DNA of 64,000 nucleotides from Leptogorgia sarmentosa (taxonomy: Eukaryota), in assembly GCA_964658305.1 (NCBI GenBank), contig OZ210884.1, forward strand, positions 1,922,001 to 1,986,000, written 5' to 3'. This document shows positions 3,001-48,480 of the stretch, piece after piece. The notes below the pieces were generated by a model. The model ran no database searches and was not told the DNA's origin. It was given only the letters and a program-made list of their open reading frames with translations. Numbering within the stretch: the first letter of the stretch is position 1; each line of letters opens with the position of its first letter. The position numbers were made by a program, and so were the translations under genes.

Positions 3001-6000
3001 GGGGTGGATGCGCGGTGGGGATCGAAGAGGTGATATTCCCAGGGGGTTGGGGAATACACGCGAGAAAATATTTGTTTCTGGATTCTCTAAACGTCTATTT
3101 TTAGCATTTTCAGGTAGGTATATTAATAATTTAAAGCCCACATAATTGGAGATTTCTTAAACTACAAAATCGCATAGGCTGCTGAACACCCATTAGTGAA
3201 CTTTAATTGGAAACACATTCCAATATTTCACGAAGGCAATTTTCTGTTCTTAGTCAATTGATTATCTCAAATGATATGAACTAGCATTCTGAATAATTGT
3301 ACTCCGCCTCCCACTTTTCACTTCAGATTTAGTACAATCTCAAAGTTGGTCATTAAAATAACCGGGGGGGGGGTCTTAGAATCAGCTTAAGTCAATGTTA
3401 TTGTATCATTTCACTTCATTTAAGTACTAGTACTTTGCAAGATGTCCCAAACTGCTTGTTAAGAACTCAAAGCAATCAGTGCCCACAATTCTTATTTACA
3501 GCCTGATCTCACACATGGCAGAATTACATGTAAAGCAAAATATTCATTAATAAGCACACATACATGATATGGAATCACGCGTGGGACAACCGTCTGGGCA
3601 CTAGGGGAAATGTGGCGTTCGCCCACCAAGAAAATTACTTGTTAGCTTCACGTCATGGTTTTTGCCCCGCACTAAATGTATTTCACTTGTATTGGTACTG
3701 ATCATAATAATGCAATCTTGATTCTTGGTGAGAACATTATTCAAAAGCTAATACGCTAAAGATTCCACAAAACTACAATGCCCTTGAGCAAAAAATAGCC
3801 TAGTTATCCGCAGCTATTCCCGCATGAAGTTCTGCAAACCCAAGGGGTAGGGGAGAGCGAGAGTCGTGCGAAATTTCATCCTTATGTTCAAAGATTATCT
3901 TTCGCCATCTCTAAAATAAATTACCCAAATACATACAGTTTAAAATGGTTTGTGGACAATAGTTTGAATAATTATTCGGTCGCTGTTTATTGAATTTTGA
4001 TCGTTGTAGATGGATTATATGTCTCCAAGTTAATTTAAAATTTTATTTCCTTTGCTACAGCGGAATGTCTTGAATACTACGATTCAACAGAAAAGGAAAA
4101 AGGTTTCCGCCACGTCTCTTCCTTCAACAACAAAGCTGAATGCGAAGACAATGAAGGCTTCTGGGTTTCATTCCGGAATTATCTAGAAGAATACCCCAAA
4201 GCAGATACAGAACAAAAATGTAAACGTGCCGCCAGTTCTATGAAACTTCCTCTTATTTGGGCCATTCCTTATCGATCGGAAGAAATTGATAATTTGAAAA
4301 TAGTTAATGGCGATGTTGAAACCTTGAAACGATGCCTGGTAGCACTTCCTCGACCCGCATGTCATAAAACTCCACATACAAGAGCTAATCATTTGGGAAA
4401 TACTGCTCACGTTGTTCCTGCCCGTTACCATTGGGTTATTCCTCATTTTCCGTCAAATAAAGACCAAAGATGCGTATTACGATTGAGGTTAGTGATAGAA
4501 ATGTTTTACATCATGCCATCATGTCCAAATTTAACCATGCAGTAATGGTTAAATTTCAAACAAATTTTTAAGAAATGAATTGAATGAATGGAATGAATTG
4601 TAAACCTTTCAAAAAGAAGACACGCTGTACCAGATGTATAAACAATAATTGGTTACTTTAGTTCGGAGAATTTATTTACCTTGTGGCAATGCTAGTCAGA
4701 CAATATGTCGACACCAATTTTGGCTGAATTTTAAGATCCACCACGACAGCTAAAAATAGCAACTCAAATTTGGTTAAAAAAATTTACATTGTTGGGACGA
4801 AACTTTGCAGTTTGAATAATTTGAACACTCTTCATTATGCTCGAGCGACGAGCGTATAATCCCGGAGCGATGGTAATAAATCCCAGGCTAATCTCACATG
4901 GGAAGATAAAATTCATTTTTTTCATTTTGGGTCAGTCGTAGATCATCAAATATGGCAAATAGAAAAACTACCACTATGTTCTATAAAATAATTTTCCATG
5001 GTACTCCTTCGATAACACACCATTTTTTTAAGATTTGCTTTTTAGAGTAGGTTTTTTAATCGGGTGAAAATATCGAGCATGTTGTGCAAGTTTTCAATGC
5101 TTTGTGCAATTTGGTTGACAAAGCGTCAATCGTCATAATTAGATTGACTCCAAGTGTAATTTGAGTTTAAAAAAATGAACGAGCTGTTTGCCAATTCAAT
5201 TGTCATTCACATGACGACAGTAAGTCGAAGGCTAGCATTTAAAATACATGTATCCGATGAAAAAACCCCCGTTGTTTATTCATTTCAAATTAAAATCACG
5301 AATTAGCAACAAAAATAAGCTTTTAGTAATTATGGCTGACGGGATGTACACAGAAATTCTTCCTCTAAACGAAAGGCGAAAAATGCCATTGCTCTTTTTT
5401 TAGCAAAAATATTCAAATATCGGAACCAAATGAAACACGTTGGAATGGAATTAGCTATGCATTTACTATTTTCGAACTTATGAAGGAGATGATCACCCCA
5501 TATGTTCTCATGTTTTCTCCACTTTCTTTATAGATATAACATTTCCACGGGGGATTACCCACCATACAGAACGTTCAGTGATAAAAACAATGATCCGTAA
5601 GTATTGTGGTCTAAATTAATTTTTTTTTACTGCATTTCCAAAAGCGTATCAAACTCATTGTACTTGCACATTTGGTAGTGCATCCCGTTTTTGCAATTTG
5701 ACGCACGTTCGTTACTATTTACAAAATAATTTATTTATGAAATTAGCGTGTCACATGTGAAATGTTATGTGAATATTCCGTGAGGGCAGCAAGCAAAAAA
5801 GAGTATTAAATAGAAAAGAGATAATTGTGAATTTGAACATGAAATATCAGTCGAGAACCCAGATATGTCGAGAACGCAGAAAACAGTTTGTATGAAATTG
5901 AAATGAAATTAAAAGAAGTCGATATGCAACCTCCATATGGTCGGAAAAATCATCTCAAAATAATATGAATTAACGTATCAAAATAATTGAATTTTAGTGT

Positions 6001-9000
6001 AATTTTCAGTTAAGTTGTGCCTGGTGCATGCTGAATTTGTATAACAGGCTCAAATTCATACCCAAACCATCGCTATGGGCGGTCAAAGCAGCATTTCGCA
6101 ATACAAACTAGCTATAACTAGAAATACATATATGCAGCAACCCCTCGCCTTACTAACCAATTAATGCAACTATATTTTTGGAAAATGAAGTACTTCAAAG
6201 GCTGCCTGATGTTGTTGTCATGGCAACACGATCGGAAATTCATATTTCTGTATTTTTTTGAAAATAGTCAAAATATATCAGCTTTTATCTTTATTTTATT
6301 GGCATTTTTTTTTTTAATTTCGAGAACCATTTGTTATCCGTACGTTATTAGGACTAATATAAACTTGAATTTGGTGCGAAATACTACATTTATTTGCATA
6401 AAACGGTTTAAATAAGTCAGTTTTGATATGAAACAATTTCCAGCCAATGTTCGCTCGTGTTCTTTTGGGGTAAAGTTTGTAAATATTTTGTAAAGTCTTG
6501 CCTTTAAAATGATAAATTTATACTTTAGAATTGAACCGTGAATAGGCTCTCGCAAATGTAATTTTCATAATTGAAGGGAAAATCGTTGATAAATTTAAGG
6601 CGAGAACTATAAAATCAAAAGAATATTCACGCGCCAAAAATGTTCAATATATGTAAATGAGTAGGGCAATGTCATAGATGAGTCTGGTATGTGTCAAAAG
6701 ATTTGGAATAAATACGGTAGGGTTTAACTGCAGAATAAAGAAATCACCATTCAGGAAAAAAAATCACCATTCAGGCAAAAATCTCACCATTCAGGCAAAA
6801 AAATCGATCCCGTGTACGTGTTGCGCTGCATATATTCTTTCCCTCGAAATTCCGAAGAAAACCTTTCTGTTCGAGAAAATGAGTCGGGCAAAATGTTTTG
6901 TAAAATGCTTGATCAGGAATTTTAAGTTATTCCGTGATTAACTTAGCAGAAATGAGATAAGCGCCAAGAGAGAATAAAGAATACTGCTCTTATATTGTGC
7001 AATGACTTTCTCAAGGAAAATTGTACAATAATTATTCGTCCGGATCTGCTTGTTCAAAGCTACTGTAGGTTAACGCTAAACCCGGGTGGAAATTAAATTC
7101 AACCGATAAATTATTCGGTACGTCAATTTAGCTACTACGGAACTTCAAAGAAGAAACCTCGTGTTAATCCAGACAAGATTTCTGAAGAAACATTTCTAAA
7201 TTTACAGACAGTATACTGGGAAATATGTTTAGATCAGATTTTTCGTTAACCCAGGTTTAAGTTAACCGCTTTATTAAACAACTGTCCCCAGAGACGTCGC
7301 GAGGTTGTTGAAGCTGAGAGAACACGGTGAGCAACGAAGATGTGATATTTCCAGTGGAACTTTGGCGCATACTCCCGAAAAATGTTTTTGAATAATGGTC
7401 TCTCCTAAATGTTATTTTTAGCATTTTTTTACTCTGTTATATTGACAATCGGAATGCCTGTTATCGCAGGGTTTCTCCAAAAAACAAACGTTGAACAGAC
7501 TGTCAAACACACATTATTGAAAAATAACTGGACACACACTGCAGTATTTCACAAAGGCAACTTAGCTACTGTCCTCACCTAATCGATTATCTCCAATGTT
7601 TCTGCACTGAAATCAAATAGCATTTTCAATATTAAAAAACTGGGTGAGGGGGGATTCTCGACAGTCCCCTTTCGGGCGGTGCTCCGCTCACACCTGAAAG
7701 AGAAAGATCAAAATTATAATAAGACTTGGGATGACTTGTCATTTCAGTGCCACTAGTTTTTTTTTGCCTGTTCACTCGACTGCTCTGATCCTAGAGAGAC
7801 AGTTATTACAATATTTATCTTCAAGAAACCTATTTATTTTCTTTAGTGGTAATGGTGTAAACTCTCCAATCCAAAACAACCCAACAGTAAACGTCGGCAA
7901 ATTCAAGCTCCCATTGAAGCTCGCTATCAACACAGCTCAATTTGGACGCACATTTCAAGATCGTTCACACTTGTTCAAGCTCGTAAAGAGGCCTTCGGGT
8001 GTGTCACAGAGAAACCCCATAATTAATCTGAATGTTCGAGGGAAACGGGGGAATATCGTACAAGTTTATCCAGCGGTCGAATACGACTTTATTCCAAAAT
8101 TCATGAGTATTCCAAGTACATGTATGGTGCACGTCCAGTGGACAGGTAAGTTGTTGTTGTCGTTGCAAAAGTTTTGAAGTTTAGGTATAATTATTAAATT
8201 ATACAGTAGTATTAAATGAGTATAGACAGTTGCGTGCAATACCGCTGGGAAATAAAATTTGTATCTTTAGTTAGTGCATGCGCTATTTTTCACACATGAA
8301 ATTTGCTGCATGGGCGTTCTGCATGATTGGTCATACGATTTCTTTCACTATTGGATATTTGTCGGATGAGCGTTTTCATTGAAGGGCGTTCTTTTGCCTC
8401 CACCGGTTTGCAGGTTAGTGTAGAGTCTGATTTTGCGAACTATTTTGGGAGAGATTTATGGAATTTTCACAAATTATTACTCAATTGAAACAAACATGTT
8501 TGGTCATAAAGAAAACGTTTAGGGCTTCATTAACTTGAAATAAAACTCCTGCTTGAATTTTCATATTCTTTTCAAAAGTACACTCCATATTTATTTTAAA
8601 GACATTTTTTATTTACCTACGCTTTTGGCTGTTTTTCGGAGAGGTCCGGTTGTATTTTACCGCAGGCCGGATGCATTTCACAGCTGGCCGGATGCATTTC
8701 ACCGCAGGTCGGATACAAAAAAAACGCCCCGCTGTGAAAGCCGTATTAGCCACTCAGATTGCTTCATTCTCATTTATTTCTGTGGTATCTAAAAATACTA
8801 TTTCAGCATTTTAAAAAGGGTATATGTGCCCTCCCGGTTATCACCATAATGGCCTTATGGCAACTCCTGAACTTGGGCACAGGATGTACGGTTACACATT
8901 GAGGAAGGATAGCATTGTGGAGTCACCAGAGTGCTCAAACTGCGAGCGGAGAGCAATGCATATTGCAAATAGTGAAAGTCTAATAAATACTCTCCTCCCA

Positions 9001-11657
9001 ATCCAAGAGAGTGCTCAAACTGCATGAGCAGTGAGCGAAATATACAAAACGTATAACAATGTGCCCTCGATTTTAACCCTTCAGATTTAGAACGATCTCA
9101 CGGAAAACAACTGACAACTTATTGGCAAATAGTTTATTATGCAAGCGTTGACGTCAAGCGTATATACACTGCTCTATGTCACATAAAGTTCACAAATATT
9201 AATTATTAAGTATTTCAATGAATATTGCAAGAAAAGTATGGAAATTGAATATCTTTCTTCATACTACTCTTTCTAGTTGCTGCCAAATTCAAAATGGTTA
9301 TACTGCAACGTAGCCTTTTGTTGTTGTCTTTTGGAATAAATATAATTATTTTGAAATATGTTATAACCAACATATATTATAAAACTGAATAAAATATTCA
9401 ACGGTCGGAGTACTGATATAAAAACAATAAACTAACAATCACTTACTTTCCAGGATCGAACAGCAATCCACAAGACAACGATGGACAAGGTACTGCAGGT
9501 AGGTTTAAACGGATTTGATGAAAATTTACAAGTTGCAAGTTTGAAACTCTGGAAACGTCCATGAGTTATCTTTAACTATTCACATACTTTCATTTAATTT
9601 TTAACAATTATTGAATGAGTTTGAGCACGACCTGAAGAATTACCAAGCTCGAAGTTGTCGTTATAAACCGAGTCCGATTTTGATATCGTTAAACTGAGTG
9701 GGCTTGATAATTGTTTAATTCAATAATTGTTTCACTGTTTAATTGAAATATTCAAACGATTTCAGCACATTCCGCACCTGCCTCTGACCGTTCACCCTTA
9801 ACGGTGGTAAATATGTTGTTGTATACATAAGTGTCCTATTCAGTTCCGAAAATATCATGTTAATTAACGGTTAAAGGAATACGTAGACTTCATTGATGTT
9901 CGGGTCTTATCCACCGTTTAAGCTAAATGGGCTACGACAACCAGCAAATGTGTCTTAAATTCCTCAAAATAATATAAACTTCTTTTCCTCTTGAAAAAAC
10001 GATCTTACGTTCTCCTTCAAAGTACTCTTTCAATCCATGTCAAGATCTTTGCTCGTTGTGATTGTTTTATTTTTCCAGGGTTTTTTCCCATTTTTAATTT
10101 GTCCAAAAATTTGCGAAAAGACGGCGCCATATTGTTTTCATTCGTGTTCATAACAATGACGTCAGTGAGTCAATGTGATGCTCGTCATCATCATCATCAA
10201 TTTTTTTTCTTCATATTGACCATTAGACGACATTTTGCTGCTGTGAATGTCTAGATTCCATATTCGATAAGCTATTGAGTTGATATGACGAACTCACCAT
10301 TCGCTGTTCGCAAATCAGGAACGAGGAATACTTGAAATCAATAATAAATATATGTTATTTACCGGCTGGGAGGTCCGTACTGGAAAATATTTTGTCGAGG
10401 TCTCAAAAACGGCCCGAGGCCGAAGGCCGTGGGACGTTTTTGAGACCGAGACAAAATATTTTCCAGTACGGACCGACCTAAATGGTAAATAACTTATTTA
10501 TTTTTTTTCCTCGATGTTATGATAAAATTCGTCAAAAATTCCAGTGTTGTGAACTAGATTTTGAGATCAGTTTGTCTGTTTACTTTGCTACTCTATCGCA
10601 AGTATGGCTGCTAAACAGCCAAGACGAAGTGAGAAAAAACCCTTCAATATTGACGCATTTTCTTCCATATTCACGCATTTCCACTTAACATTACGATGAA
10701 AAAGGTAAACTTGTTAAAATTATTTATTTTCCCGGTCGTTTCACGATACAAACATGGTTAAAATACGCTTTAGACAGCGAAATATTTCGCCGAGAATGTT
10801 TTGTTTTGTTCATACTGGTGAGACTTTGTTGATACTTATGAGTTTTTGTCGCTGTAAATACCCCCTAAAATATCCCTTAGCATAATAAAATGAACTTTCA
10901 TGTGTTCTTTATCGCCTAAACTCGTTTTGAATATTTTAATAAGTGGCCATTCAATTTTAAAAAACAAAAACATTGGCTATATTTGTAATTAAATCTACGA
11001 GAATGCATGCGAGCGGTCCGTAAAGTAGGTTACGGACCGCTCGGCAACCAATCAGAAAGCTGTATTTAGGTTACGGACCGGGAGTTACGGACCGGAAAAA
11101 AATAATTACTGTTATTATACATTTAATATTTATTCTCGTCCCTGATTGGTCAGAAAGCACCGGTTAATTCTCGGTATTCGGTAATTATTACGTATTTTCC
11201 TCAGCTTCGCTTCGGCAGATAACATTGACCTCGGTCTGAATAATTCTTGATGTCATGCTCAGCCTCATCCAATAATTGTTTATTTTCGTTGGCAGGTACA
11301 GATCGCAGCAACATAGTTCAAACCAAACACCCTTCTGTGAATTATCCTTTGACCTCGGAAGAAGCATCAACACTGTTCTCAAAGGCCAAAATTATCTGGT
11401 CAAGTAGTGAAGAAACGAAGACAAATGACGATCTTGCAATAAGTATGGCTTCAGCTGGTTATTACGAAAGTGTTTCCAGTTTGAGCAAAAAGTCGACAGC
11501 ACTTGATACCGAGTTAAACAACGCCCCAGCATCGTATCGTGGCATGTTATTGAGCTTCCAACCTGGCAGCTATTACTACATGTGCTCAAGAAATAACAAC
11601 TTCAGCAATCGTAATCAGAAGGGGCGAATCACAGTGAAGAGGTCACGGGGCAAATAG
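1..11657 (+). CDS. DD3-3-like protein, copy A (5'-partial, no FN2 cassette)
   Basis: GT-AG exons in consistent phase: <1-62, 367-535, 2081-2242, 2487-2699, 4061-4487, 5534-5596, 7847-8145, 9454-9498, 11296-11657. Translation includes [69 protein letters not shown]. Several exon lengths (213, 63, 299, 45) match the paralogs. Family recognised from memory of Dictyostelium DD3-3 homologs. Confidence 0.9.
1185..1812 (+). mobile_element. Non-autonomous palindrome-ended repeat (family also at ~19490-20000 and ~61710-62110)
   Basis: Three alignable copies (AAAGAATTACTC..TGATTGGTTCATTTCA..AAACATGGCGGCCG..) with a terminal hairpin at 1761-1806. Confidence 0.75.
1650..1743. mobile_element. 94-bp PIF/Harbinger-type MITE nested in a larger repeat
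   Basis: TIRs GGCCTAGGTTAAACGTCG / CGACGTTTGACGTAGGCC with 3-bp TSD TGA (1647-1649, 1744-1746). A related end occurs at ~50845-50870. Confidence 0.7.
6740..6805. repeat. Three tandem copies of AAAATCACCATTCAGG
   Basis: Directly visible. Confidence 0.8.
8640..8716. repeat. 21-bp tandem repeats (CCGCAGGCCGGATGCATTTCA-like)
   Basis: 3-4 degenerate units. Confidence 0.7.
10345..11105 (-). mobile_element. Non-autonomous element with a 140-bp imperfect palindrome
   Basis: Palindrome 10353-10493 centred on CCGAAGG; CCAATCAG near the far end (11048); TTACGGACCG subterminal repeats. Confidence 0.7.
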
Positions 11658-13003
11658 AATTCTCTGTCCGTTTTTTTTTACAATAAGAAATCTCCCGCTT
11701 GCTTCTTCTATGTAGCTTGATAATTAAATTCCGTGCACAAGTTTGATTTAATTTTTTTTTTCTTATGACACAAAATTTCAAGGAATTAAAGTTTTTCAGT
11801 GCTGGTTAGCGCAAACATTAGGTTGAAATTGAACCCACAGTTTTGGTTTCTGCTACACGTCCGTAGATTTGGAACTTAACAAACAAAACTATACTATTTG
11901 TCCAGAGAAAATGTGTGAAGGAATATTTGCAAGATTATAAACAAACCGCTGGGAAATTTGCTTTGAATTTCACGTTAACCCAGGATTAAGCTAACCGACT
12001 CTTGAACAACTGGCCCCTTATCTGCTTCAGAATGGCAAGAAGGATTTATAAAGTTCGTAATCTACACCACGTAATTAAATAATCGCATGGTAAAATTATG
12101 AGATAAGAAAATCACGTGGTGTAAACTACAAACTTTATAAATATTATCTTCACCATGCAAACATAAAATGAAATGAAGGGAAATAATGTTCTCTTGACCA
12201 GCGATGTAGTAAAAATTGAACTTCTTCGCAAATTTTTCAACTTCGATTTCGCGTGAATGAAGCGGCAAGCAAGATTTCTAATTGTACTCTAGGCAATATA
12301 ACAAGCCCATTTTTTGCACTATATATTATATACTCACCATTTATGCTATTTGTTATACTTTCTTTTTTCAACATATTTGAACGTTGGATTAATAGTTATT
12401 TTTTGGTCTGCACCAAATATATCCTTAACGGTGCATGAACAACAGGCGTTGCAGGCACTATATTTGTTATGCATGCTGTTTCTACTAATTCGAATGCACT
12501 TTTGCGATTGTATGGCTTCTTTAATAAATATATTCAAGAAATTGAATTCTCAACGCAAGGTTTACTTTTGAAAAGTTATGTCTCTGGTCTCTCAAAATGC
12601 GTTTGGTTTGACTGTGTATAGAAAGTGTCGGTTGAGACATGCTCGTGTTCTGCATCAGTCGTAATTGTAGCTTTCATTGGCGCGGCGAGTGTAGCTATAT
12701 CCAAATTATCGAACATCAAATTGTTGAATTCTAATTTGAAATATATTGAAAAAGAAACTGTTTGAAAAACAATTGAACTTATTCATAAGGAATTCGTTTG
12801 GCAGAGCCCCAAAAAGTAGTTGCCGAAATCAATGTCAGGGGGAAAATGATCTGAACAAGAAAATGGATCGGTTCATGCCAGTTGGCTGTGCTGTTACTTC
12901 ACGTATAGCGAATGAGATTTAGCATTTAGAGCAAGCCCTATACGTGTAGCCTGCGTCCCATTGCGCATTACTCCAAGTGGCGAATCTTAATGCATCGTTT
13001 AGG

Positions 13004-14240: not shown

Positions 14241-15231
14241 ATGTATGGGGGACTGAAGATGAATTCCCCCAAGATAAAGTGTTCAGTTTGGACAGAGCAA
14301 CCCTAATTGAACAATTATTATAAATTGAACAACTATATTACAAACATATTTTTCATCTTTCAAGAAAAAATTAGCAGTTTCTTTTCCTGCTTACTTTTCT
14401 GTAGTCGTCAGATTACTATTTATGCGGCTGCAATTAGAAACGCTGATAGTTTACACATTTTACCAGGGTTTCCAAAATGGAAGAAAATAACTTTCCAATA
14501 GTGGCCACCACTGTGAACTGAGGGGTGAATTTCATTAGTGCATAATTATTGTACAATCTTCATTCCTACATGAGGAAAGCCGTATTTAAATCAGCAGTGG
14601 AAATCCTACTTTATACATTATACATTATACACGAGATACGTTTTTTCTTTTCCGGGGGGGGGGGGGGGGGGTAGAAGTTGAAAGGAAATGATCCGCAAAA
14701 ATGTGGTTAGTTATCAAAAGCGAATTCCTTGAATAAAAACAAAGAATCGGTCAGAGATTTTTTGTGTGAAATGGAATTTATTGGAAAAATGTTACTGTGT
14801 GTATTTAAACTACTGCGTAATAATATTCATAAACGAAGGTTCAATAAGCTTCATCACTACAGACCCTGCTATGTTCTCGGTAATTCTCTAGTGGCTAATA
14901 TTACGTTTACAACGATGATAATAATACAAAAGTAAGTAATTAAGTGCAAATGATAATATGGAATACGTTTGGTATATGCCGTAAAGTACAATTAAAAATC
15001 TCGCCTGTCTCATTATTCTCGTCTTTTTGTGGTTGGCTTTTGGTATATTATATGAAAAATTATTGCTAATATTGGCAATTTTTGGGAACGAGCATTTTGT
15101 TACAGGGAATTAAATAAATCAGCAGTAATGAATAATGGCTTTTTCAATCAATATCGAAAAAAATGAAATTAAAGGGCATGGAAGAGGCAAGCAGAAGATT
15201 TCTTATTGTAATACAAAAGTAGCAAGTACGT

Positions 15232-18200
15232 TTATGGCTCCACTGTGAGCCGTCCTTTCTGATTACGATTGCTGAAGTTGTTATTTCTTGTGCACATGTA
15301 GTAATATTCACCGGGTGGAAATTTCAATAGCATACCACGATACGATGCTGGAGCGTTGTTCAACTCATCATTAAGCTTCGTCTTTGTGCTAAAACGCGAC
15401 ACACTGTCGTAATAACCAGCGGAAGCCATACTCGTTGCAAGATCGTCACCGGTCTTCGTGTCAGCGTCGCTTGACCAGATAATTTTCGCGTTAGTGAACA
15501 TCGTTGATTGTTGTTTCGAGGTTAAGGGATAGTTTACGGAGGGGTCTACCATTTCAACAATATTGCTTCGATCGGTACCTGGGTAAAGATTACACAAAAG
15601 TAAATACGACTAGTACATTACATACAAAAAATGAATGTTTATCCGTGAAATGGTAAACCATTTTTTCTAATGATGAAGATGAAATGTTGTATTAAACGAG
15701 GCAATAGGCGAGCGAAATTACCGAAATAAAATAGTCTTTGCATTGCGCGAATAAAAAGATTCATTGTTTGTTTTTATAGTACAAAAATAGGCTATTGCTT
15801 TTCAAGAATTATAAAAATATAAACGGAGTAAACACACTGCGATCACTGTGTCAAAAGTGAAAAGCGTGTTGGAAACCTGGAGTGCAATAGTTATCGTACT
15901 ATTGCACTATTGGAAAATGAAACCTTTTATTCAATATCACGTGACCATAATTAACCGATCAAACGACCTGGGCAACGTAGTATTATATAAATTGGGATGA
16001 TAGATTCACGTTTCCGGTTAAATCAAAGCTCAACTTATAATTCGCAATAAATTACACGTACCATCAGTCCCTTGACCATCATTGTCATTCGGGTTGGTGT
16101 TTGAACCTTAAAAATGAATCATCGTGAGGCCATTGTTTTGTTATCAAAAGTATACAGTGTTAATCAACTGTATGTTTAGAATCAATTTTGAAATCGGCGG
16201 CAAATTATACATAAATTTACTGCATACCTACGTACAGTATTAAAAAATCAACAGTTTGTTATAACGGCAAAACCAGTAGCTACCGACTTACCTGTCCACT
16301 GGATATGTACCAAACTTGTACTTGGAATTGTCAAGCGTTTTGGGATAAAGTCGTATTCGACTGCGGGATAAACCTGTACGATATTTCCACGTTTCCCTCG
16401 AACGTTCAGATTATAGATGACGTCGGAATTTAACGCAGCGTTACGCCTGGACACGAGTTTGAATAAGTGTGATCGATCTTGAAATGTGCGTCCAAATTGA
16501 GCTGTGTTGATGGCGAGTTTTAATGCCATCTGAACTTTGCCAACTGTCACTGTTGGGTTGTTTTCAACTGGAGATTTTACACCATTATCACTAAATACAA
16601 AAACGACCTATTTGAGGATAATGGTTACTATAGAAACGTCGCTTGGGCAAGGTTAGCTGAGTGAACGGTCACAGATATCGATGATGATTCGTTCTTATTC
16701 TGTCGAGGCCTAGTTATTGTTTAATTTTACATTTTTGTTGATAAAAAGGTACTATTATCAGGGGCGTAAAATCAGAGAGGGTTTTAGCGATTAGATGATC
16801 TAAATGTCGAAAATTTTCTTGCTCGACCCCAAGCATGGATTTCGCAACGCGAAATTCCTGCTCCCCTCCATTTTTATCGGCAAATTTTCGAAAACAAAAC
16901 GCGCCAATCAAAATGCACCACCATATGTTGGCCTTCAGTTTAAATTAAAACGTCAAGCAAGCTTTTAACGGGTGCATTCTTAACGAAATCGACAATACTT
17001 ACGGATTATTGTTTTTATCCCCGAACGTATTAAATGGTGGGTAATCTCCGGTGGAAATGTTGTACCTATGGAGAAATTTAAGAAGAAATTACCTTCTGCA
17101 GATTTACCAACACGTTAGCAACAGTATCAAATTAACATGGCAGTTTCTTCATCATGCTCAATATTTCACTGAAAAGATCAATGGCTTGTTTTCCACATTG
17201 GATTAAAAAAAACAAATAAAAACCATGTACAATATGCAGTGGGCAATTTTAGGAAAAAAAACAAACTAATTCATTGGTATACAGCATTTGAAAATGCTAA
17301 GTCTTTGGAGAATGCTGTAAATTTGAAAATGATGTAATGAAAATGCTGTAAATTTATCATAAGATTTAGTCGTAAAATTAAGTTTGAAATTTTTTATAGT
17401 ATCGATTTTCGTTAAACATGAAGACGCACGTTTCTATCACTAACTAACCTTAGTCGTAACACGCATCTTTGTGTATTACCAGACGGAAAATGTGGAATAA
17501 CCCAATCGTAACGTGCAGGAACGACACCACGTGCATTCCCTAAATGATTTGATCTTGTGTATGGAGCTCTTCGACATTCTGGTGGAGCCAGTGCAACCAG
17601 GCATCGTTTTAGTGATCCCACGTCATTGCCAGCCATTTTCAAATTGTCAATGTCTTCCGAGCGATAGGGAATAGCCCAAATAAGAGGAGTTTCCGTAGAA
17701 CTAGCAGCTTTACATGCAGCTTCTGTTTGATACTGGGGGGATTCTTCCAAATAATTGCTGAATGAAACCCAGAAGCCTCCATTGTTTTCGCACTCCGCTT
17801 TGTTGCTGATAGGCGAGTCATGGCGGAAACCGTCCGCTTTTGAATTGTAGTATTGAAGACATTCCTCTGCAGAAATATATGTACAAACTTTCGTTATGAA
17901 TAGTGCTGGCCGGGAAACTGCATGATCGATCTACCTGCCGAAGATTTATCTGAATTTCGACACCATGGTTCATGCAGTTGTGTATCAAAGTAATTTAAAA
18001 TTATGTATATATAGTTAGGTGCGGAAGTTCACTAATCAGAAACGTTTAGCGCGTTTAGCTAACAGTTAACTACGAAACATAGTTAAGTGTTTTATACCAT
18101 CGCACGAGATCAAGACAGGGGAACAGAATAATCACGCAAACCAAATGCGATAATTGTGCTATTGTACCTTGGCTGTATTTAAAAGTGGTGTCATTTCGTA

Positions 18201-21200
18201 TGCATGTTAATTAATTAATATTGCCGTCCAAAATTGTGTCAGAAAACGATTTAAGTCAATTACTATTCTGATGTTTTCGCTTTGTACAGTAAAATTATAA
18301 GGCAAACGTTTTTTCTCATTTTCGCTAGGTTATATGAACAGTTTAAAAAAATGAAGCTTAACCATCGCGGCAGAGTTTAAAGGGACTGACCTTTAGGCTT
18401 GACATTAAAACTTTCTCTCTGGTAATATTGGCACATATTGTCGTTATGAGCAAAGACTGCAATGTCAGTCCAATCAGTGGGATGCCAGTACGGATAGTAA
18501 TCCCGCTCTTCAGGACATTCGTAACCACTGCGGCCTCCATTTGCATTTTGTCGGGTGTACTTGGTTGTGTCGCCTTGTAGTTGTTGGTCAGCAGTGAATA
18601 TTCCTATAAATAATACAAAAAAAAACAAACAAACACCTGTGTAAACATTACAAATATACGATTTTTAGGAATTTTAGTTTCGTAGAGATAATGGCGGCCA
18701 ACAGATTTTTGCTGTAGCTACTATAGATATGTAATTTTTGACGCTACCGAAGGTTTTCGTTCTTGGGTACATTAATGGCTTTTGCTTTTAGTCTATCGTA
18801 ATTATGTTATCGACTAACTGATTCTCAAGTAAGAAATTAAAGTCTATACCTCCAGTTGCTCCTGTGTTGTCACTAAACAAAAATGGGAAACGGAAATGTC
18901 CTAAAAAAAGAAAAACAAATGAAGTTAAGCATTGTTTTACAAGACTGAAGTTCAATCATTATTCTTTCAATAATTGTTTGCTATTATTTGTAAAAAAAAC
19001 CCAGCATCGAAATATTTTTCAGTTCTCTACCACAGCGGACTCTTTTTTGCATTAGCAATTACTGGCATGTTGCTTTTCTATTTGCATTAGATTGTGGTGC
19101 ACAAAGACAACTATTAGACACGTTTCAAATGAATTACTGTGGTCAATAGAAACAGTTGCAAAAAAACAAACAAATTCTTAGTACATTCTTATTGTCCACA
19201 TTCTTCTTGAAGCAGTTGTTGAAATGAAAATCATTAGTTAGTAAGCAAAAAACAATAGCTGGTTAGAAGATCCCATATATGTTTTTCAAAACAATTTACC
19301 TGGATATGATCTCCTTTTCCTCCCATCTGAAAAGAAAATGAGAAAAAAATAAGAAGAAGTAGAGTTGTGGATGTATCTTTTGCATAATTTGTATGTAAGA
19401 TAATTTGTAATAGCATAAAATACATTGTGTGAGTAGTCTGTGATGGCAGATAATACAGCTATTAGACATTGTATTGTTTCATTTGTAAAGATATATAAAA
19501 AAGTGTTACTCGACTCTGATTGGTTCATTTCAGTGCAGTTAATCAAAAATCACAGTGCAATTTTTGTAAACAAAGTGCAATTCTCTGTAATCACAGTGAC
19601 ATTTTCTGTAATCACTTTGAACCAGTCAAATTAGAGCTCAAACGACAAATTTCTTCAAACAAAACAAACATGGCGGCCGCACTATTTAACAAAGTAAAAA
19701 TTGTCTTCGGGTCGAAAATTTGGCTTTCACCTATTTCTCAAAATCGGATAAAACTTTATCTCAAACATGACTAAAAAAAGTTTGGTGCTTGGGTAAATTT
19801 TAAAAACCCTTTTCGCAAGCAAAAACCATGCAAGAAAACTTTGGTGGTGAAATTTCGGTTTGAGACGCATAAAGTTTACACTACAATTGTCTCGAATACT
19901 TTTACTTGTACATTATTAATAAGTAATGGCATGGTTTTTCGTGAAATTTGAGTATAATATGCACTCGTGATTTTTCGAAAAACCTCAAATATACTACTCC
20001 CAACTATGCTTTTACCTTTACTTCTATTGCTTCCATAATCGCACTGCATGTGCATGTCGGCACATATTTTTCGGCTCTCTCAATTACACGCATAATTCAG
20101 GGTTTCAATATTCATATTAATTCAACTGTTATCGATATTTTCTATCAATGGTAGTCGAAGCAAAGCAGTTGCAGATATGATATTGCGTGAAATATGGTAC
20201 TGCTCGTACATGCCGTCCTGTGTTTGATGATAATCGGTCGCTTCTGTACAGTTTTACAGAAATATTATAATTATTATGTGTTCTATGTCCGATTCTACCA
20301 AAACAAGTATAGTATTTTCAATTGATTTCTACGACGTGTTGTCGAATCCAGCTTTATCCCAGTCAACTCCAATCAAAATTTTTTCTAATTAAGAAATATC
20401 ACTTACTGATTGCACATACACCCCATGGTCCGACCTGTGCTGCCGTTCCACACCATAATGTTTTACCATAGTCAACCGTTGTACAGGAGTAATACTTTAC
20501 GTTTTTATAAAGAAAGGGAAAATGGCAGCAATTTCCTGATCTTGTTTTAACCGAACAAGTGTTGGCTGAAAAAATAACGTTAAGCTTTGGTTAACTTTAC
20601 ACCATTGTAGTTCAAAACATTTTTACCAAAAAATAAATGTCAAACTCAAAGCATTCATCTATCGGTGTCCGAAATGGTTTTATATTTCTGATAAACAGTA
20701 AGTCAATAAAATGGTTGTTACGATTTTTGTAATTAACATTTCAATTGGTTGCCAACTATATTATCATTATCATGTCTAATTAAGAAATATCACTTACTGA
20801 TTGCACATACACCCCATGGTCCGACCTGTGCTGCCGTTCCACACCATAATGTTTTACCATAGTCAACCGCTGTACAGGAGTAATACTTTACGTTTTTATA
20901 AAGAAAGGGAAAATGACAGCAATTTCCTGATCTTGTTTTAACCGAACAAGTGTTGGCTGAAAAAATAACGTTAAGCTTTGGTTAACTTTACACCATTGTA
21001 GTTCAAAACATTTTTACCAAAAAATAAATGTCAAACTCAAGGCATTCATCTATCGGTGTCCGAAATGGTTTTATATTTCTGATAAACAGTAAGTCAATAA
21101 AATGGTTGTTACGATTTTTGTAATTAATATTTCAATTGGTTGCCAACTATATTATCATTATCATGTTTGATGCCTTACTCCGTTAATTAGAGCAATTAAC

Positions 21201-24200
21201 ATGTATATATTTATTTGTATCTGATGAGAATTTATTCAATAGCTGATTTCCGCTTCCTCTGTATAACCAACACTTCATACAAATATCCAGCAATCTTCTA
21301 ATTATTTGTGGAAAATCACTCACTGCTCAGGCAATCGTCCCATGTTGAGCGACTGTTGGTCGCTTGGGTTTGAGTTCCACACCATAATTTGTTTCCATAA
21401 TTAACCGTTGTACACGAGTTATACTTCTTGCCTTGATAGTTAAATGGAAATACGCAGCATTTTCCGGATCTAGTTTTCACTGAACAAACGTTGGCTGAAA
21501 GAAAAACATTTTCATGTAACTATAACATTTCCTGCAATCTAATTGGTCCAGAGTGACCGTCTCTGATGTTATAGTTACTGGCTAGCCAGTATCTTTAAAT
21601 TTTTCATATTTCTTCAATTTGAAATGGCTGCACGGTTTGCTGGAGTTACACAGGAATAAATAGAGAAAATTAAACAAGAAAGCACCGCCAAGAAAACAAA
21701 ACAGGCGACAAAAAATGGTTAAAAAATCTTTCAAGGTGAAATATTTTATTTAGCATTATTTTTATCCAACAAAACTGGCTTTTTTCACTAGCAAAGTGGT
21801 GATATGAGCGTGACTTATTTTATGTGAACAACTATAAGCAAAGTAAACAAAACTTGACTGATTCCTAATTAACAGACTGTCAGTTTGACCTGGAAGTGTA
21901 TACTAAAACAATTTGTCGCCTCGGGCTCGGTGATTATAAGCCTCCCTGAGGCGCGAAGCGGCGAAAGGCTTCTAATCACCTCGCCTTCGGCGACTACTGG
22001 AATATACCATAAGTACCATTATAAACATGAAGCATCCAAATACCCGTCGGGGAATTGGATGAATATTTTTGGATGAATAGTATTATTCGTTGAATTATTT
22101 CATATTATATTTGATTTATGACTCCGTTGAAATGATTTTTATCAACCTTTCCATTTCGACGACATGATATTACTGTACGCGATTCGCGCTTATGCTCAAC
22201 AAACCTCATGGAAATATAGAGGTTTTTTTCATGGAAACTAAGAAATATCACTCACTGGGCTCAGTAGAAGTGCTCAAGCAATCGTCCCATGTTGAGCGAC
22301 TGTTGGTCGCTTGGCTTTGAGTTCCACACCATAATTTGTTTCCATAATTATCCCTTGTACACGAGTTATACTTCTTGCGGTTATAGGTAAATGGAAATAC
22401 GCAGCATTTCCCAGATTTAGTTGTGCTTGCACAGCGTACTCCTGCAAAATAACATAAACCTTTTGTTTCAACTTAGTATTGTCCGAAATTTATAATCTTC
22501 TCATAATCAACGAATTTATAATGTTAAGATTTTATATTTTTTTAACAGAAAATGAAATTGACGGTATGGCCTTTTCTCCACTAAGCAACGTAACTGACCT
22601 AAACGCTTTCTTTTGTTGCATTTGTCATACCATTCCCAGGATTCGTGAAGACCATTGGAAAATGTTGATGAGACACTCGTCAACTGCTGGTCCTTTTCTG
22701 AGCGACTGGCGTACCAATCTTCATTATATTGCGGAGTTGCTTCTTCATGCCCTATAGGTGGATTAAAAATTATCAAGGCCCGTTTACAACGGAAATTTTT
22801 GCTCCGAGTTTATACTGACATCAAGTGAACTAAACTTTTCTCTTTCAAAGTAACAAATAAATTTTAACTATTAATATTTTCATGCTTTAATTTTTACACC
22901 AGGTTCGAACTACAAACGGACCAAGATAGGCGACCGTACATGTCTAGCATTCTCACCATTTCTCATAGTGTTCAACGTTTTATCTTTTGTGTCTTTTTGG
23001 CATCGATATTGAAGAACAAAGTTGCAATTCAAATCTCGATCGTTGCAGCCATGTTGGTTTGTCCATTCTATCGTTAACACAGATCTTCCTTGATTACTTG
23101 TATGTCCTTTGCCACTCTGAAAATAGTGCTGAAAAACGCGGACACGACATTTCAGAATTTAGTCGTGAGGTTGCAGGGAATGTTAGTTTAGGATGTTCAA
23201 GCTGGATGAGAGATCATTGCACGACGAGTTTTGTTTCGTGTTTTACTGACTAGAGTCCGTGTAGGCTTACGAGTAAGCGAGATTTGCTGTTAAAATTTGC
23301 CAGTATCTCTTCCTTGTACTCATAAAACAAATTTAACTTCACAGTTGGGTCGTTTCTACGATTATTATTATCCACTCGTTGTAGTGGATCTCATTAGTAA
23401 CTAGAAGCAGACAATATCCGTCACTGTTGGAGTTTGAAGTCATTTTACTTGCGCGAAAAACTTACTTTGATGGATTATTATTTTTAAATTGCAGCCACTG
23501 CTTCTCAGTTAATGTAAATATTAATGTCTAAGTTTTTTCTGATCGACTTACTCTGTACATACAGGAGTGTATAAAAAGAGCTAGTCCCTAAAATTCAAAT
23601 TAGTCATAATTATAGTGATCGGATTAAATTGTTTTGAGCTGCCTAGTGTTGACGATATGTCACACAAACATGATTTATTTACGAAGGAAATGTCCCATAA
23701 CTGAAAAATCCTTTGTCTTGAGGGTCGCTCAATGATTGCAAGCAATAATGCTCGTTTAGTGAATTAAATACCATGCGGCTAATTTGAATTTCGAAGACAA
23801 GTAGGGTTTTTTCGCTACTTTCGCCATTGAGCGAGAGTAACAAACCCAAATGTATAAAATACTTGTGTGGAATACATGATGCTTTGTCGCCGGATACATT
23901 TATTTACCAGGCCTACTTCAGGGTGCCAGATTGCCTAAAATCGCCTAAGATCACCTATGGTCGCCTGAGAACGCCTAAGATCGCCTGAGATCGCCTGAGA
24001 ACGCCTAAAATTGCTCAAGATTGCCTATGATCGAGATATATTACATACGATGAAATAAGGATTCTGGACTTAATAGGGAGTCTGAATTGAGAGAAGGCAT
24101 CAACTTTTTTTTATAATCCCAAATAATCCTTACATAATATCACCCAATATTGTTTGTCTCGTAGCAAATTTGTATTACATTTTTAGCAGAAAAAAAACAT

Positions 24201-24914
24201 TATAGATTCAGCGGGCTGTAAACTTACCATGTTAAATTGCTCATCCTCTTTTTTTGATGGTTGGTCTGTTTTATCGCCAACATTGTATCCACCTTTAGCA
24301 TTGTTCTTAAAATGTTTGAGAAGTAGGAATATCAAATGTTTGGACCTTTGAAACAGAGTTGCAAAAACGCTGCGGATATGCGCGTACCACGCGGAGGGAG
24401 GTTTCCCTATGTGAGGTGAACGAGGAAAGTTTCAGCAGAATAGTACCTAATCAGTAGAAACTAGCAATAAATTTCCATGCAATTTTCAATGACGTAATCT
24501 AATCGTAATTTGGCCATATAAAAGGTGCTTTACACAGATATTTTAACAAGTGAATACTTGACATTATTATACGACAATGACGTCATTTTACCATATAATG
24601 GCAAAACAGAGTGCAGATACCCAGCCGTAATGCACTCGCCGTATTGCACTCTAATATACTTGTTTGAAACCGGTTTGCTTGCGATCTCAAAACAAAGCAA
24701 TAAAAGCCAATTAAATGGCCAACGCGAAATATAAGTTATTTAAATGTTAAATTATCAGAACTACAGTTGTGTGTCGTATAATAAATTCCTTATTTAATGG
24801 TTTGACATGCAATACGGCCTGGTATTTCACTCGTTTCTCGCATTTTCCTCGCCCTGCGGGCTCTGAAAAATACTTACGAAACTCGTAAAATACCAGGCCA
24901 TATTGCATGTCAAA

Positions 24915-24957
<43 letters not shown>

Positions 24958-25746
24958 CATATTATATTATTTGATATTATATATCTATGACAATTGATCA
25001 TTTTCAATGCTTTTGACATTATGTAGATAAATGTCAGTGCTGGTAGTCTGGTGCAACATAACCAATCCTGCAATGGAGCATACAGAGCTAGAGTATTCCT
25101 TGTAGACTAAAACAGATATTTGTAGAAATGCAGTAGAAGTAAGAAACAGTTTACAGGGCCTTTTTTAGGATTTTTCAGTGGGGGTTGGCCAAACACGAAG
25201 AAGAACTTTAATGAAGGATGGAAATTTCATTACAAAATAGGAAGGATGGAATTGAAAGGGAAATAATTATAAATCAAAAAAGAAATCTACATTTAAGCCG
25301 GGTTCTGGCCGCCCTCCCCCAGAACATTTTTGGATTTTTGAGTTCTCTCTTTTGGGCAACATGGGTGTAGGTTTTAGCCCCCGAGTTTATATAGGTTAAA
25401 AAGATCCTGTCATTTTGTTTTAGGCTGTAAAACTCACCTGAGAGTCGAACAGTCGATTGTTATTTCCTCTATTAGCATTAGCTCCATTCAGGCGATTATT
25501 TGAACCTCTGGGATTGTGAAGAAAAATATCCGCGTCACTCAAACTAACCAATAGACCTGCCGGACAAAGAGCGCAAATTATTAAACAAGAAACTTATAAT
25601 TATTTATTTGCAATTTTTTAACACACTGTAAAAAGAAAAAGTTTCGTGTTGATTTCGCAAAGTGAAAGTTGTTAACAAACATTAAAAAACGACTGTTTAC
25701 CTGCTATAATAACAGTGGCTGCTGGAGACAAACAAACAAACGCCAT
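15232..25746 (-). CDS. DD3-3-like secreted protein with 4 inserted FN2 domains, copy B (~901 aa with all exons; ~650 aa without the cassette)
   Basis: Coding exons in order: 25701-25746 (MAFVCLSPAATVIIA), 25438-25556 ([14 protein letters not shown]), 24228-24305, 22957-23128, 22599-22751, FN2 22256-22441, 21324-21494, 20798-20956, 20407-20565, micro-exons 19300-19326 and 18850-18900, then 18391-18603, 17449-17866, 17003-17065, 16292-16590, 16062-16106, 15232-15578. Total 2706 nt, in frame, all GT-AG. Confidence 0.88.
20407..20565 (-). CDS. FN2 domain exon 4 of copy B
   Basis: Near-identical to exon 3 (one T/A amino-acid change); 159 nt, gtaagt donor. Confidence 0.82.
20798..20956 (-). CDS. 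FN2 domain exon 3 of copy B
   Basis: NTCSVKTRSGNCCHFPFLYKNVKYYSCTAVDYGKTLWCGTAAQVGPWGVCAI; 159 nt, phase 1-1. Confidence 0.82.
21324..21494 (-). CDS. FN2 domain exon 2 of copy B
   Basis: NVCSVKTRSGKCCVFPFNYQGKKYNSCTTVNYGNKLWCGTQTQATNSRSTWDDCLS; ttttcag acceptor, gtgagt donor; 171 nt. Confidence 0.85.
21517..22020 (+). mobile_element. Crypton-like non-autonomous element
   Basis: Decayed ORF start at 21624, MAARFAGVTQE*IEKIKQESTAKKTKQATKNG*KIFQ, resembles the N-terminus of animal Crypton/KIAA1958-like proteins. Palindrome at 21915-21993. Confidence 0.55.
22256..22441 (-). CDS. FN2 domain exon 1 of copy B
   Basis: VRCASTTKSGKCCVFPFTYNRKKYNSCTRDNYGNKLWCGTQSQATNSRSTWDDCLSTSTEP matches the FN2 pattern C-x-FPF-x-Y...Y..CT...WC...W..C; phase 1-1, 186 nt. 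Confidence 0.85.
23930..24030. repeat. 10-bp minisatellite (ATCGCCTAAG-like) x ~10
   Basis: Directly visible, degenerate. Confidence 0.9.
24550..24918 (+). mobile_element. Palindrome-ended repeat (second copy at ~63595-63915)
   Basis: Direct alignment of the two copies; hairpin at 24797-24918; 14-bp ATTGCACTCGCCGT repeats (about 2 versus 4 copies). Confidence 0.75.
24917..24954. repeat. (AT)n microsatellite
   Basis: Directly visible. Confidence 0.95.
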
Positions 25747-48100: not shown

Positions 48101-48480
48101 GGTATGAAGCTGTTTATTTTAGGCTGTAAGCCTGTAAAACTACCTGAGAGTCGAAAAGTCGATTGTCATTTGCTCTGTCGGCATTAGCTCCATTCAGACG
48201 ATTATTTGAACCTCTTGGATTGTGGAGGTAGATGTCCGCATCGCTCAAACTAACCAATAGTCCTGTGAGACCAAAAACACAAATTATTGAAAAAGAAACT
48301 TGTTATATTATTGATCTTCGAGTTTTCAAACACTGTATATAGAAATATGTTTTCTTCCATTTGGACAAATGCAAGTGGATCAAAATATAGCCCGAAATCA
48401 TCATGTTAACGAACATTAAAAATCCGCTCTCTACCTGCTAGAATGACAGCGGCCCCTGGCAGCATACAATTAAGCGCCAT
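39200..48480 (-). CDS. DD3-3-like secreted protein, copy C (~665 aa, no FN2 cassette)
   Basis: Exons 48435-48480 ([15 protein letters not shown]), 48144-48262, 47161-47238, 46288-46465, 45448-45603, 44297-44509, 41991-42408, 41116-41178, 40096-40394, 39940-39984, 39200-39582. Total 1998 nt, in frame, GT-AG. Confidence 0.9.
42933..43412 (+). mobile_element. Palindrome-ended repeat (internally deleted copy at ~26225-26640)
   Basis: Two alignable copies starting ATTATTATATG.CTTTTCAAAATTC.CTATT.TGATTGGTT; hairpin at 43262-43410. Confidence 0.75.
43610..44112 (-). mobile_element. Non-autonomous element with a 158-bp imperfect palindrome
   Basis: Palindrome 43623-43780 centred on GCGTAGC; GCCAATCAC at ~44074. 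Confidence 0.7.
44921..45142. repeat. Polypyrimidine minisatellite (CCCCTTCCCTC)n
   Basis: About 220 bp of nearly pure C/T with an 11-bp unit; G-rich on the sense strand of copy C. Confidence 0.95.

What the first reader, a model, noticed from the sequence alone, without database searches (positions are those of the whole stretch)
18850..22441. Exon-shuffled FN2 cassette inserted into the middle of a DD3-3 protein
Seen: in copies A and C the exon ending ..KRKRNG/NK splices directly to GLFTADQ. In B the same phase-1 intron holds six extra phase 1-1 exons: four FN2 domains plus 27-nt and 51-nt micro-exons, 753 nt or 251 aa, with the frame preserved. D has the same micro-exons and at least one FN2 exon. 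Known: FN2 modules bind collagen/gelatin or phospholipid headgroups in MMP2/9, the mannose receptor family and seminal BSP proteins. Inference: a lineage-specific DD3-3+FN2 architecture that gives a protein family of unknown function a variable binding module. All exons are symmetric, so combinatorial skipping is possible.
Basis: partly seen in the sequence, partly recalled or inferred. Interest (0 to 1): 0.85.

Follow-up and report, generated by a model that had tools for sequence, protein, structure and literature searches.

The report
Binding-domain arm spliced into coral protein
A soft-coral gene of the little-understood DD3-3 family has four fibronectin type II exons and a conserved protease-type motif inserted into its middle; spliced contigs from runs that appear to be RNA include at least three of the four, two other soft corals share the design, and it likely gives a secreted protein a cut, fast-evolving arm predicted to bind matrix or cell surfaces.

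Summary
Copy B of a four-gene octocoral DD3-3 cluster has six extra phase 1-1 exons (753 nt) in intron 5. Four score as Pfam fn2. Spliced contigs from three runs (one study; RNA inferred from GT-AG joints) join exon 5>F1>F2>F3/F4>27 nt>51 nt>exon 12. F3 and F4 are 99% identical and cannot be told apart. The apparent skip joints are mRNAs of paralogs C and A.

The design is not species-specific: Dendronephthya XP_028414361.1 (three FN2) and Paramuricea CAB3980509.1 have it. It is rare (2 of 271 fetched DD3-3 proteins of 450 aa or more), and my searches found no paper on it.

(1) A furin-type R-K/R-K/R-R motif follows the array in 4 of 4 FN2 genes. (2) The insertion replaces a 99%-conserved Asn in a length-fixed, ordered coil. 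(3) The predicted core is a weakly LPMO-like sandwich spanning the insertion, plus a cupredoxin-like domain.

Variation seen is exon gain, loss and fast substitution; combinatorial skipping was not shown. Best model: a furin-nicked, two-chain secreted protein with a tethering FN2 arm, like the MMP-2/9 insert. Verdict: a new variant of a known kind.

The parts
25701..25746 (-). B exon 1: start codon and most of the hydrophobic signal peptide
   Evidence: joint 25554-25699 in 3 RNA-like runs
25438..25556 (-). B exon 2: predicted mature N-terminus [13 protein letters not shown]
24228..24305 (-). B exon 3 (DD3-3 core)
22957..23128 (-). B exon 4 (core; holds the invariant Q-H-G-C)
22599..22751 (-). 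B exon 5, ends KRKRL + phase 1; lacks the family's conserved Asn
22256..22441 (-). FN2 exon F1 (186 nt, phase 1-1)
   Evidence: Pfam fn2 1.8e-11; both flanking joints in contigs
21324..21494 (-). FN2 exon F2 (171 nt, phase 1-1)
   Evidence: Pfam fn2 4.5e-11; joints
20798..20956 (-). FN2 exon F3 (159 nt), recent tandem twin of F4; separate inclusion not shown
   Evidence: Pfam fn2 1.7e-10; 392-bp 99.0% duplicate
20407..20565 (-). FN2 exon F4 (159 nt, phase 1-1)
   Evidence: Pfam fn2 8.8e-11; joints, shared with F3
19300..19326 (-). 27-nt micro-exon encoding G-R-K-R-R-S-Y-P, a furin-type motif
   Evidence: joints in 3 of 3 runs; 0 nonsynonymous changes against D
18850..18900 (-). 51-nt spacer micro-exon ending A-T-G before G-I-F-T-A-D-Q
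   Evidence: fast-evolving against D
18391..18603 (-). B exon 12: DD3-3 core resumes
15232..17866 (-). B exons 13-17 (17866-17449, 17065-17003, 16590-16292, 16106-16062, 15578-15232), including the C-terminal cupredoxin-like domain
62613..62780 (-). D: F2-type FN2 exon (168 nt, phase 1-1)
62240..62266 (-). D: broken relic of an F3/F4-type exon (acceptor plus ~25 nt, then unrelated sequence); lower end approximate
61513..61536 (-). D: 24-nt micro-exon encoding R-K-R-R-S-Y-P
61155..61205 (-). D: 51-nt spacer micro-exon
57271..60901 (-). D: C-terminal core exons, 96-98% identical to B; D's 5' exons lie beyond the window
39200..48480 (-). Paralog C, no cassette (665 aa; intron 5 = 45447-44510); lower end approximate
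   Evidence: C-type joint in 3 of 3 runs
1..11660 (+). Paralog A, no cassette (5' end outside the window; intron 5 = 2243-2486); upper end approximate
   Evidence: A-type joint in 1 run at depth 4.6

Best explanation
Gene B encodes a likely secreted DD3-3 protein carrying a spliced array of FN2 modules, likely gained by exon shuffling in an octocoral ancestor, that is predicted to be cut by furin just after the array, leaving a two-chain protein whose FN2 arm would tether it to collagen-like matrix or cell surfaces. Shown: the exons, their phases, inclusion of at least three FN2 exons and both micro-exons, the same design in two other octocorals, and the conserved tetrabasic motif. Inferred: the signal peptide routes the protein to the secretory pathway. 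The array leaves the core at an ordered coil after a helix, inside a beta-sandwich built from strands on both sides of the insertion. A cut after R-K-R-R would give an N-chain of about 45 kDa (with the basic FN2 array) and a C-chain of about 54 kDa held together by that sandwich. The arm would then be fixed at one end only, free of the tight geometry of a length-fixed site. Arm length and sequence vary by exon duplication, exon loss and rapid substitution, not by shown alternative splicing.
For: Exon phases and open frame. Pfam fn2; best solved matches are the FN2 inserts of MMP-9 and MMP-2. Contig joints. The same site is used in XP_028414361.1 and CAB3980509.1, and an F1-like phase 1-1 exon occurs in metagenome contig L001. 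R-K-R-R|S in B, D and Dendronephthya and R-R-K-R|G in Paramuricea: 4 of 4 FN2 genes, against 8 of 220 other DD3-3 proteins with such a motif in the 60 residues before LFxAD. The motif lies in a stretch with pLDDT under 50 (354-393), and its exon shows 0 nonsynonymous against 2 synonymous changes between B and D. The only hydrophobic stretch is N-terminal. The uninserted model has pLDDT 90.7 and pTM 0.91, and LPMO-type chains align over residues 25-474, across the site. Other DD3-3 proteins have gained WSC, C-type lectin or SUEL modules (5 of the 49 long representatives).
Against: No cleavage or binding data exist. The four motif-bearing genes share ancestry, so they are not independent. A second RxK/RR occurs somewhere in 65 of 271 family members, and the family's invariant RGKR fits the same consensus. 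The FN2 array was modelled at pLDDT under 50 from a shallow alignment, so the low confidence of the linker is weak evidence of disorder. FN2 genes have lost Asn193 (99% conserved), so the core may not work as in paralogs. Trees do not give one FN2 clade: A-D group at 100/99 on C-terminal halves, and B plus the Dendronephthya FN2 gene is rejected on N-terminal halves (AU p 0.008). A single gain therefore needs gene conversion or movement of the cassette between paralogs. The runs are from one study and are not recorded as RNA.
Confidence: 0.45

Rival explanations
1. The protein stays one chain and the FN2 array loops out as an exosite, as in MMP-2/9. The basic motif is only a linker or a polyanion-binding patch.
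For: MMP-2/9 carry FN2 repeats inside the catalytic domain without a cut (established knowledge; best solved hits). AlphaFold folds the inserted Dendronephthya protein with the core largely intact (pTM 0.76).
Against: The tetrabasic motif with a small next residue is kept in three species and sits on its own micro-exon with no amino-acid change between B and D. Confidence drops next to the insertion (residues 391-430 and 31-60) compared with the uninserted model, though the alignments differ.
Confidence: 0.2
2. The FN2 paralogs are recognition proteins or decoys. The core has lost its usual activity, and the fast-changing array and spacer serve self/non-self or microbe recognition.
For: Asn193 is lost in B and both Dendronephthya copies. 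Nonsynonymous change is raised in the FN2 exon and the spacer (p 2e-5 and 7e-7) while synonymous change is not (p 0.29). One run holds an FN2 exon end that is absent from the window. An ascidian homolog is linked to hemocyte allorecognition (PMC6916515, passages) and a sponge homolog is induced by microbial patterns (PMC6208332, passages).
Against: dN/dS of the FN2 exon is 0.8 and counts are small, which fits relaxed constraint as well as positive selection. The core is under purifying selection (0-0.26). The ascidian marker depends on glycans, not on an inserted module.
Confidence: 0.18
3. The array is cut at both ends (KRKR in exon 5 and RKRR) and released as a small basic, disulfide-rich membrane-binding protein, like the seminal BSP proteins.
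For: B has K-R-K-R just before the array. The array is basic (pI 9.1; 26 K+R against 8 D+E). PDC-109 is among the solved matches.
Against: Dendronephthya has K-R-N-R there. The two Arg are 95-99% conserved in all DD3-3 and lie in an ordered segment. Cassette-free A and C also have KRKR.
Confidence: 0.1
4. The symmetric exons are skipped combinatorially to make many isoforms from one gene.
For: All six exons are phase 1-1. The F2>F4-type joint could be a real F3 skip. Dendronephthya XP_028414346.1 has the shortened junction and no cassette in its model.
Against: No B-type skip joint is among the listed rows (15 of 29, 15 of 53). The direct joints carry C or A letters. F3/F4 collapse in contigs explains the F2>F4 joint.
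Confidence: 0.07

Closest known systems
Protein DD3-3-like XP_028414361.1 (Dendronephthya gigantea, 860 aa) and CAB3980509.1 (Paramuricea clavata, partial)
   Same: FN2 array at the same site, then a tetrabasic motif, then a spacer ending T/S-G-G before LFTADQ. The Dendronephthya protein also has the shortened junction without Asn.
   Different: 3 FN2 (Dendronephthya) or at least 1 (partial Paramuricea) against 4 in B; different spacers. They are automatic annotations, and no description turned up.
Gelatinases MMP-2 and MMP-9
   Same: Tandem FN2 modules inserted inside a folded domain of a secreted protein; best solved-structure matches to F1 (E 6e-16 and 2e-14).
   Different: The host is not a metallopeptidase. 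These FN2 have six Cys, not four. A furin-type motif follows the array.
Class 1-1 module exon shuffling (Patthy; PMC8001218, passages read)
   Same: One domain per exon with phase-1 introns on both sides, inserted into a phase-1 intron of an extracellular protein.
   Different: Here the module sits inside a length-fixed motif rather than between domains, together with a cleavage-motif exon.
Dictyostelium DD3-3 and ascidian HrSMLP1
   Same: Same family by name and homology of relatives; signal peptide.
   Different: No FN2 is mentioned in the passages read. Dictyostelium DD3-3 is described as single-pass (PMC10022678, passage), whereas B has no second hydrophobic stretch.
LPMOs (AA10, AA13, AA15), X325, and cupredoxins
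   Same: Model residues 25-474 align to LPMO-type chains starting at their first residue (Z 4.1-4.7); residues 484-657 align to cupredoxins (best Z 7.0, rmsd 2.3, 93 aligned).
   Different: Asp, not His, at the predicted mature N-terminus; no His in the C-terminal Cys loop; Z values are within the range of common folds.

Membership tests
Fibronectin type II domain (PF00040) | Profile score above the curated cut-off over the whole model | tested here: met
   5 of 5 exons, 41-48 bits against 22.2, positions 1-42 of 42
Fibronectin type II domain (PF00040) | Four conserved Cys and the FPF/Y/WC aromatic core | tested here: met
   9 of 9 aligned repeats, each with two extra Cys; alignment to MMP-9/MMP-2
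Fibronectin type II domain (PF00040) | Binding to collagen/gelatin or choline lipids | not testable with these tools
   ligands recalled from vertebrate members only
Class 1-1 shuffled module | Domain bounded by phase-1 introns and spliced in frame | tested here: met
   also the L001 exon
DD3-3-like proteins | Sequence homology along the core | tested here: met
   exon 13 is 63-78% identical to named octocoral DD3-3-like proteins; tree. No Pfam model covers the family
DD3-3-like proteins | Typical C-x2-R-x-R-N-x-G-L junction (a conserved trait measured here, not a curated definition) | tested here: not met
   Asn 99% conserved in A2; 8-residue spacing in 261 of 266; B and both Dendronephthya copies lack it
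Gelatinases (MMP-2/9) | Zinc peptidase domain hosting the FN2 insert | tested here: not met
   only fn2 in the Pfam scans; family profile finds no solved relative; no HExxH in the B translation
Furin/proprotein-convertase substrates | R-x-K/R-R in an accessible linker of a secreted protein | tested here: met
   4 of 4 FN2 genes; low-confidence linker; consensus recalled
Furin/proprotein-convertase substrates | Actual cleavage | not testable with these tools
   needs protein data
LPMO / X325 copper proteins | LPMO beta-sandwich fold | tested here: inconclusive
   Z 4.1-4.7, rmsd 3.6-4.7, 128-154 aligned; whole 667-aa model searched, domain not folded alone
LPMO / X325 copper proteins | His as the first residue of the mature chain | tested here: not met
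   Asp25 is 95% conserved and is the first aligned residue; signal cleavage site inferred
Type-1 copper cupredoxins | Cupredoxin fold | tested here: inconclusive
   Z 7.0; Foldseek E 1.6e-3 to 2.3e-3, prob 0.99-1.0
Type-1 copper cupredoxins | Cys-His-Met ligand loop | tested here: not met
   the loop reads M-C-T-R-N-N-N-F with no His; this Cys is under 85% conserved; ligand pattern recalled

The most novel reading that the evidence does not exclude
DD3-3 proteins are an unrecognised family of secreted metal/redox proteins: an LPMO-like sandwich with Asp in place of the N-terminal His, joined to a cupredoxin-like domain, wired in some eukaryotes to a NOX/ferric-reductase module and aimed by swappable binding modules. 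Octocorals built a furin-activated version whose hypervariable FN2 arm is inserted beside the conserved N-terminal face and targets matrix or foreign cells.
Probability: 0.15. Interest if true: 0.85.

Novelty: new variant of a known kind. Interest (0 to 1): 0.5.

Why it matters
DD3-3 is widespread in invertebrates and protists, with loose links to allorecognition, response to microbes and coral settlement, but it has no Pfam model and no solved relative. This cluster offers a natural comparison, paralogs with and without a binding arm side by side, with clear predictions for a cut site, chain sizes and ligand class. It is also a clean cnidarian case of a module shuffled into a length-fixed motif together with a cleavage-motif exon. 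The fold leads and the reductase fusions make a metal/redox function for the family testable. The shuffling process itself is textbook, and the architecture already sits unremarked in two database proteins, which limits the surprise.

Tried and rejected
Separate nested FN2 gene: rejected, because contigs join the FN2 exons to DD3-3 exons on both sides. Cassette skipping in B: the 18605-22604 joints were rejected as such, because the letters between match the C and A junctions; 14 of 29 joints were not shown, so a minor skip is not excluded. D as an allele of B: unlikely, since cassette introns are 75-85% identical, although the 3' end is 95%; not settled. A and C as chimeras with a non-FN2 5' half from another clade: not supported; A, B and C stay nearest each other in the N-terminal tree, without starred support. 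No genome is held for this window, so the rest of D and other paralogs could not be read. No run is on record as RNA. A search with F1 alone for longer proteins gave no hit among 3 candidates. The family profile found no solved relative (best E 0.55). Foldseek gave no match at E 0.001 or better for either model. P0195 (17 fn2 stretches) is not a DD3-3 protein. The two other long inserts assigned to the site by hmmalign (P0168, P0300) are alignment slips: both keep R-x-R-N-x-G-L further on. The earlier-findings index had nothing. The protein atlas gave no answer, so no language-model look-alikes were seen. No complex prediction was run, because both chains come from one predicted domain and a pass would say little. 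Supplements of the papers were not opened and could list octocoral DD3-3 genes.
Full report
Setting. The window (about 36% GC) holds four intron-containing DD3-3 paralogs: A (+), B, C and D (-). The closest database proteins are from Paramuricea (78%), Dendronephthya (75%) and Xenia, so the source is inferred to be an octocoral. No whole genome is held.

Observation. B's intron 5 (3995 nt, against 244 in A and 938 in C) holds six AG/GT-bounded exons of 186, 171, 159, 159, 27 and 51 nt, all phase 1-1, totalling 753 nt. The 17-exon model reads as 901 aa with no internal stop. Four exons of B and one of D pass Pfam fn2 at E 1.5e-12 to 1.7e-10. Each repeat has six Cys. The best solved matches to F1 are MMP-9 and MMP-2. 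F3 and F4 are a 392-bp tandem duplicate at 99.0% identity. D keeps an F2-type exon, a 24-nt and a 51-nt micro-exon, and only a relic of the F3/F4 type.

Expression. Six runs hold the stretch, none recorded as RNA. I laid 4 of 6 on the whole gene and 3 of 6 on the cassette. X4-X6 (one study) give contigs that skip GT-AG introns exactly, and X1 does not, so X4-X6 are taken as RNA. Joints seen: exon 5>F1 (2 of 3 runs), F1>F2 (3), F2>F3/F4 (2), F3/F4>27 nt (3), 27>51 nt (3), 51 nt>exon 12 (2). The joints that skip the cassette carry letters matching C's junction (3 runs) or A's (1 run, depth 4.6), not B's. Only 15 of 29 and 15 of 53 joints were displayed, and contigs drop rare forms, so minor skipping is not excluded. 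Whether F3 and F4 are both included is unresolved. X6 has a back-joint between F3/F4-type exons with an end absent from the window, pointing to another allele or paralog.

Not species-specific. Cluster look-up exposed Dendronephthya XP_028414361.1 (860 aa, three fn2 at the same site) and Paramuricea CAB3980509.1 (partial, one fn2). A metagenome scan found 1 relative among 160 pattern matches: a lone 183-nt phase 1-1 exon that starts like F1 and scores best against F2 and F1, with no DD3-3 exon seen on its 1.8-kb contig. An FN2 profile run over all 307 fetched proteins hit only these two DD3-3 proteins and one pure FN2-repeat protein, that is 2 of 271 DD3-3 proteins of 450 aa or more. The searches listed only the best 120 of 2506 and 150 of 3153 hits, so this is a sample.

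The site. Between the conserved Cys and LFxADQ there are 8 residues in 261 of 266 aligned proteins (6 more did not align). In the cassette-free alignment R190, R192, N193, G195 and L196 are 95-99% conserved. B ends exon 5 with KRKRL and the Dendronephthya copies with KRNRV: one residue short and without the Asn. The uninserted model (pLDDT 90.7, pTM 0.91) puts the site in an ordered coil after helix 181-189, at pLDDT 95-96. The inserted model keeps the core but loses confidence at 31-60 and 391-430, and the array is under 50 because its alignment was shallow.

The missed feature. After the last FN2 come R-K-R-R|S (B, D, Dendronephthya) or R-R-K-R|G (Paramuricea), then a spacer ending T/S-G-G. 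This fits the furin consensus (recalled). Background: 8 of 220 other proteins have such a motif within 60 residues before LFxAD, and 65 of 271 have one somewhere besides the invariant xGKR. Between B and D the motif exon has no nonsynonymous change, the core exons have dN/dS 0-0.26, the FN2 exon 0.8 and the spacer 2.2. The nonsynonymous excess is significant (p 2e-5, 7e-7) and the synonymous one is not (p 0.29) (small, rounded counts).

The host protein. B has one hydrophobic stretch, at the N-terminus. The structure search gives cupredoxins for residues 484-657 (Z 7.0, rmsd 2.3, 93 aligned) and, lower down, LPMO-type chains (AA10, AA13, AA15, X325; Z 4.1-4.7) over 25-474, with Asp25 as the first aligned residue. 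These Z values are middling, so they are leads. If right, the cassette splits one domain, and a nicked protein would stay together through shared strands. Among the 49 long representatives scanned (of 150), 9 carry ferric-reductase/FAD(/NAD) modules and 5 carry WSC, C-type lectin or SUEL domains. One, P0189, has an internal WSC followed later by R-K-R-R.

History. On C-terminal halves (34 chosen rows) A-D form a clade (100/99) and the FN2 label needs 2 changes. On N-terminal halves (23 rows) a B plus Dendronephthya-FN2 clade is rejected (AU p 0.008). Because site, repeat type, motif and spacer end are shared across species, and the lost Asn between B and Dendronephthya, I infer one gain followed by gene conversion or cassette transfer within tandem clusters. 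A and C keep the ancestral junction, so they are not simple deletions of B. This is inference, and the trees alone do not support it.

Literature. 'DD3-3' is in 11 papers, 10 listed; 'DD3-3-like' in 4, 3 listed; with 'fibronectin' in 1; 'Dendronephthya gigantea' with 'fn2' in 0. FN2 with octocoral or cnidarian terms gave no relevant title (listings only). I read matching passages only: PMC6916515 (ascidian homolog tied to hemocyte allorecognition), PMC6208332 (sponge homolog induced by microbial patterns; cites a Dictyostelium knockout with faster aggregation), PMC12960093 (a DD3-3 enriched in coral settlers), PMC8001218 (class 1-1 shuffling), PMC6805232 (table entry) and PMC10022678 (single-pass DD3-3). 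The 2005 Dictyostelium paper was not read. Subscription papers and supplements were not searched.

Verdict. The feature is real, spliced and conserved across at least three octocoral genomes. It works like the MMP-2/9 insert in layout but is not a gelatinase. The best model is a furin-nicked two-chain DD3-3 with a variable FN2 tether (0.45). New variant of a known kind; interest 0.5.

Noticed in passing
P0178, P0182, P0205, P0208, P0212, P0269, P0273, P0285, P0286: 9 of 49 long DD3-3 representatives are fused to a membrane ferric-reductase/NOX-type module, suggesting the family works with a transmembrane electron source.
   Followed up: partly
model of P0023, residues 25-474 and 484-657; window 25438-25556 and 15232-16590: The DD3-3 core is predicted as a weakly LPMO-like sandwich with Asp where LPMOs start with His, an invariant His109, and a cupredoxin-like domain without the usual ligand loop.
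   Followed up: partly
P0189, P0303, P0245, P0160, P0261: Other lineages inserted or appended WSC, C-type lectin or SUEL modules; P0189 has R-K-R-R after an internal WSC and an acidic spacer.
   Followed up: partly
P0062, P0072, P0083, P0123, P0124: Five cassette-free DD3-3 proteins have a furin-type motif 30-32 residues before LFxAD, so nicking near this site may recur.
   Followed up: no
window 20434-20564 (run X6): A back-joint with an FN2 exon end (K-S-F-G-I-C-E-T) absent from the window: another allele or paralog with tandem F3/F4-type exons.
   Followed up: partly
window 14677-16784 against 56709-58826: B and D are 95% identical at the 3' end including introns but 75-85% in the cassette, which suggests gene conversion. 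Run X4 shows only the D-type letters at several last-exon places.
   Followed up: partly
P0002 (XP_028414346.1): A Dendronephthya paralog with the shortened, Asn-less junction but no cassette in its model: a real loss or an annotation skip.
   Followed up: no
window 36256-36513 (+): Open stretch ending in a Cys-rich motif that resembles the tail of piggyBac-type transposases (recalled, untested).
   Followed up: no
window 44900-45150: A long G/A-only repeat tract inside intron 5 of C, the intron that holds the cassette in B.
   Followed up: no
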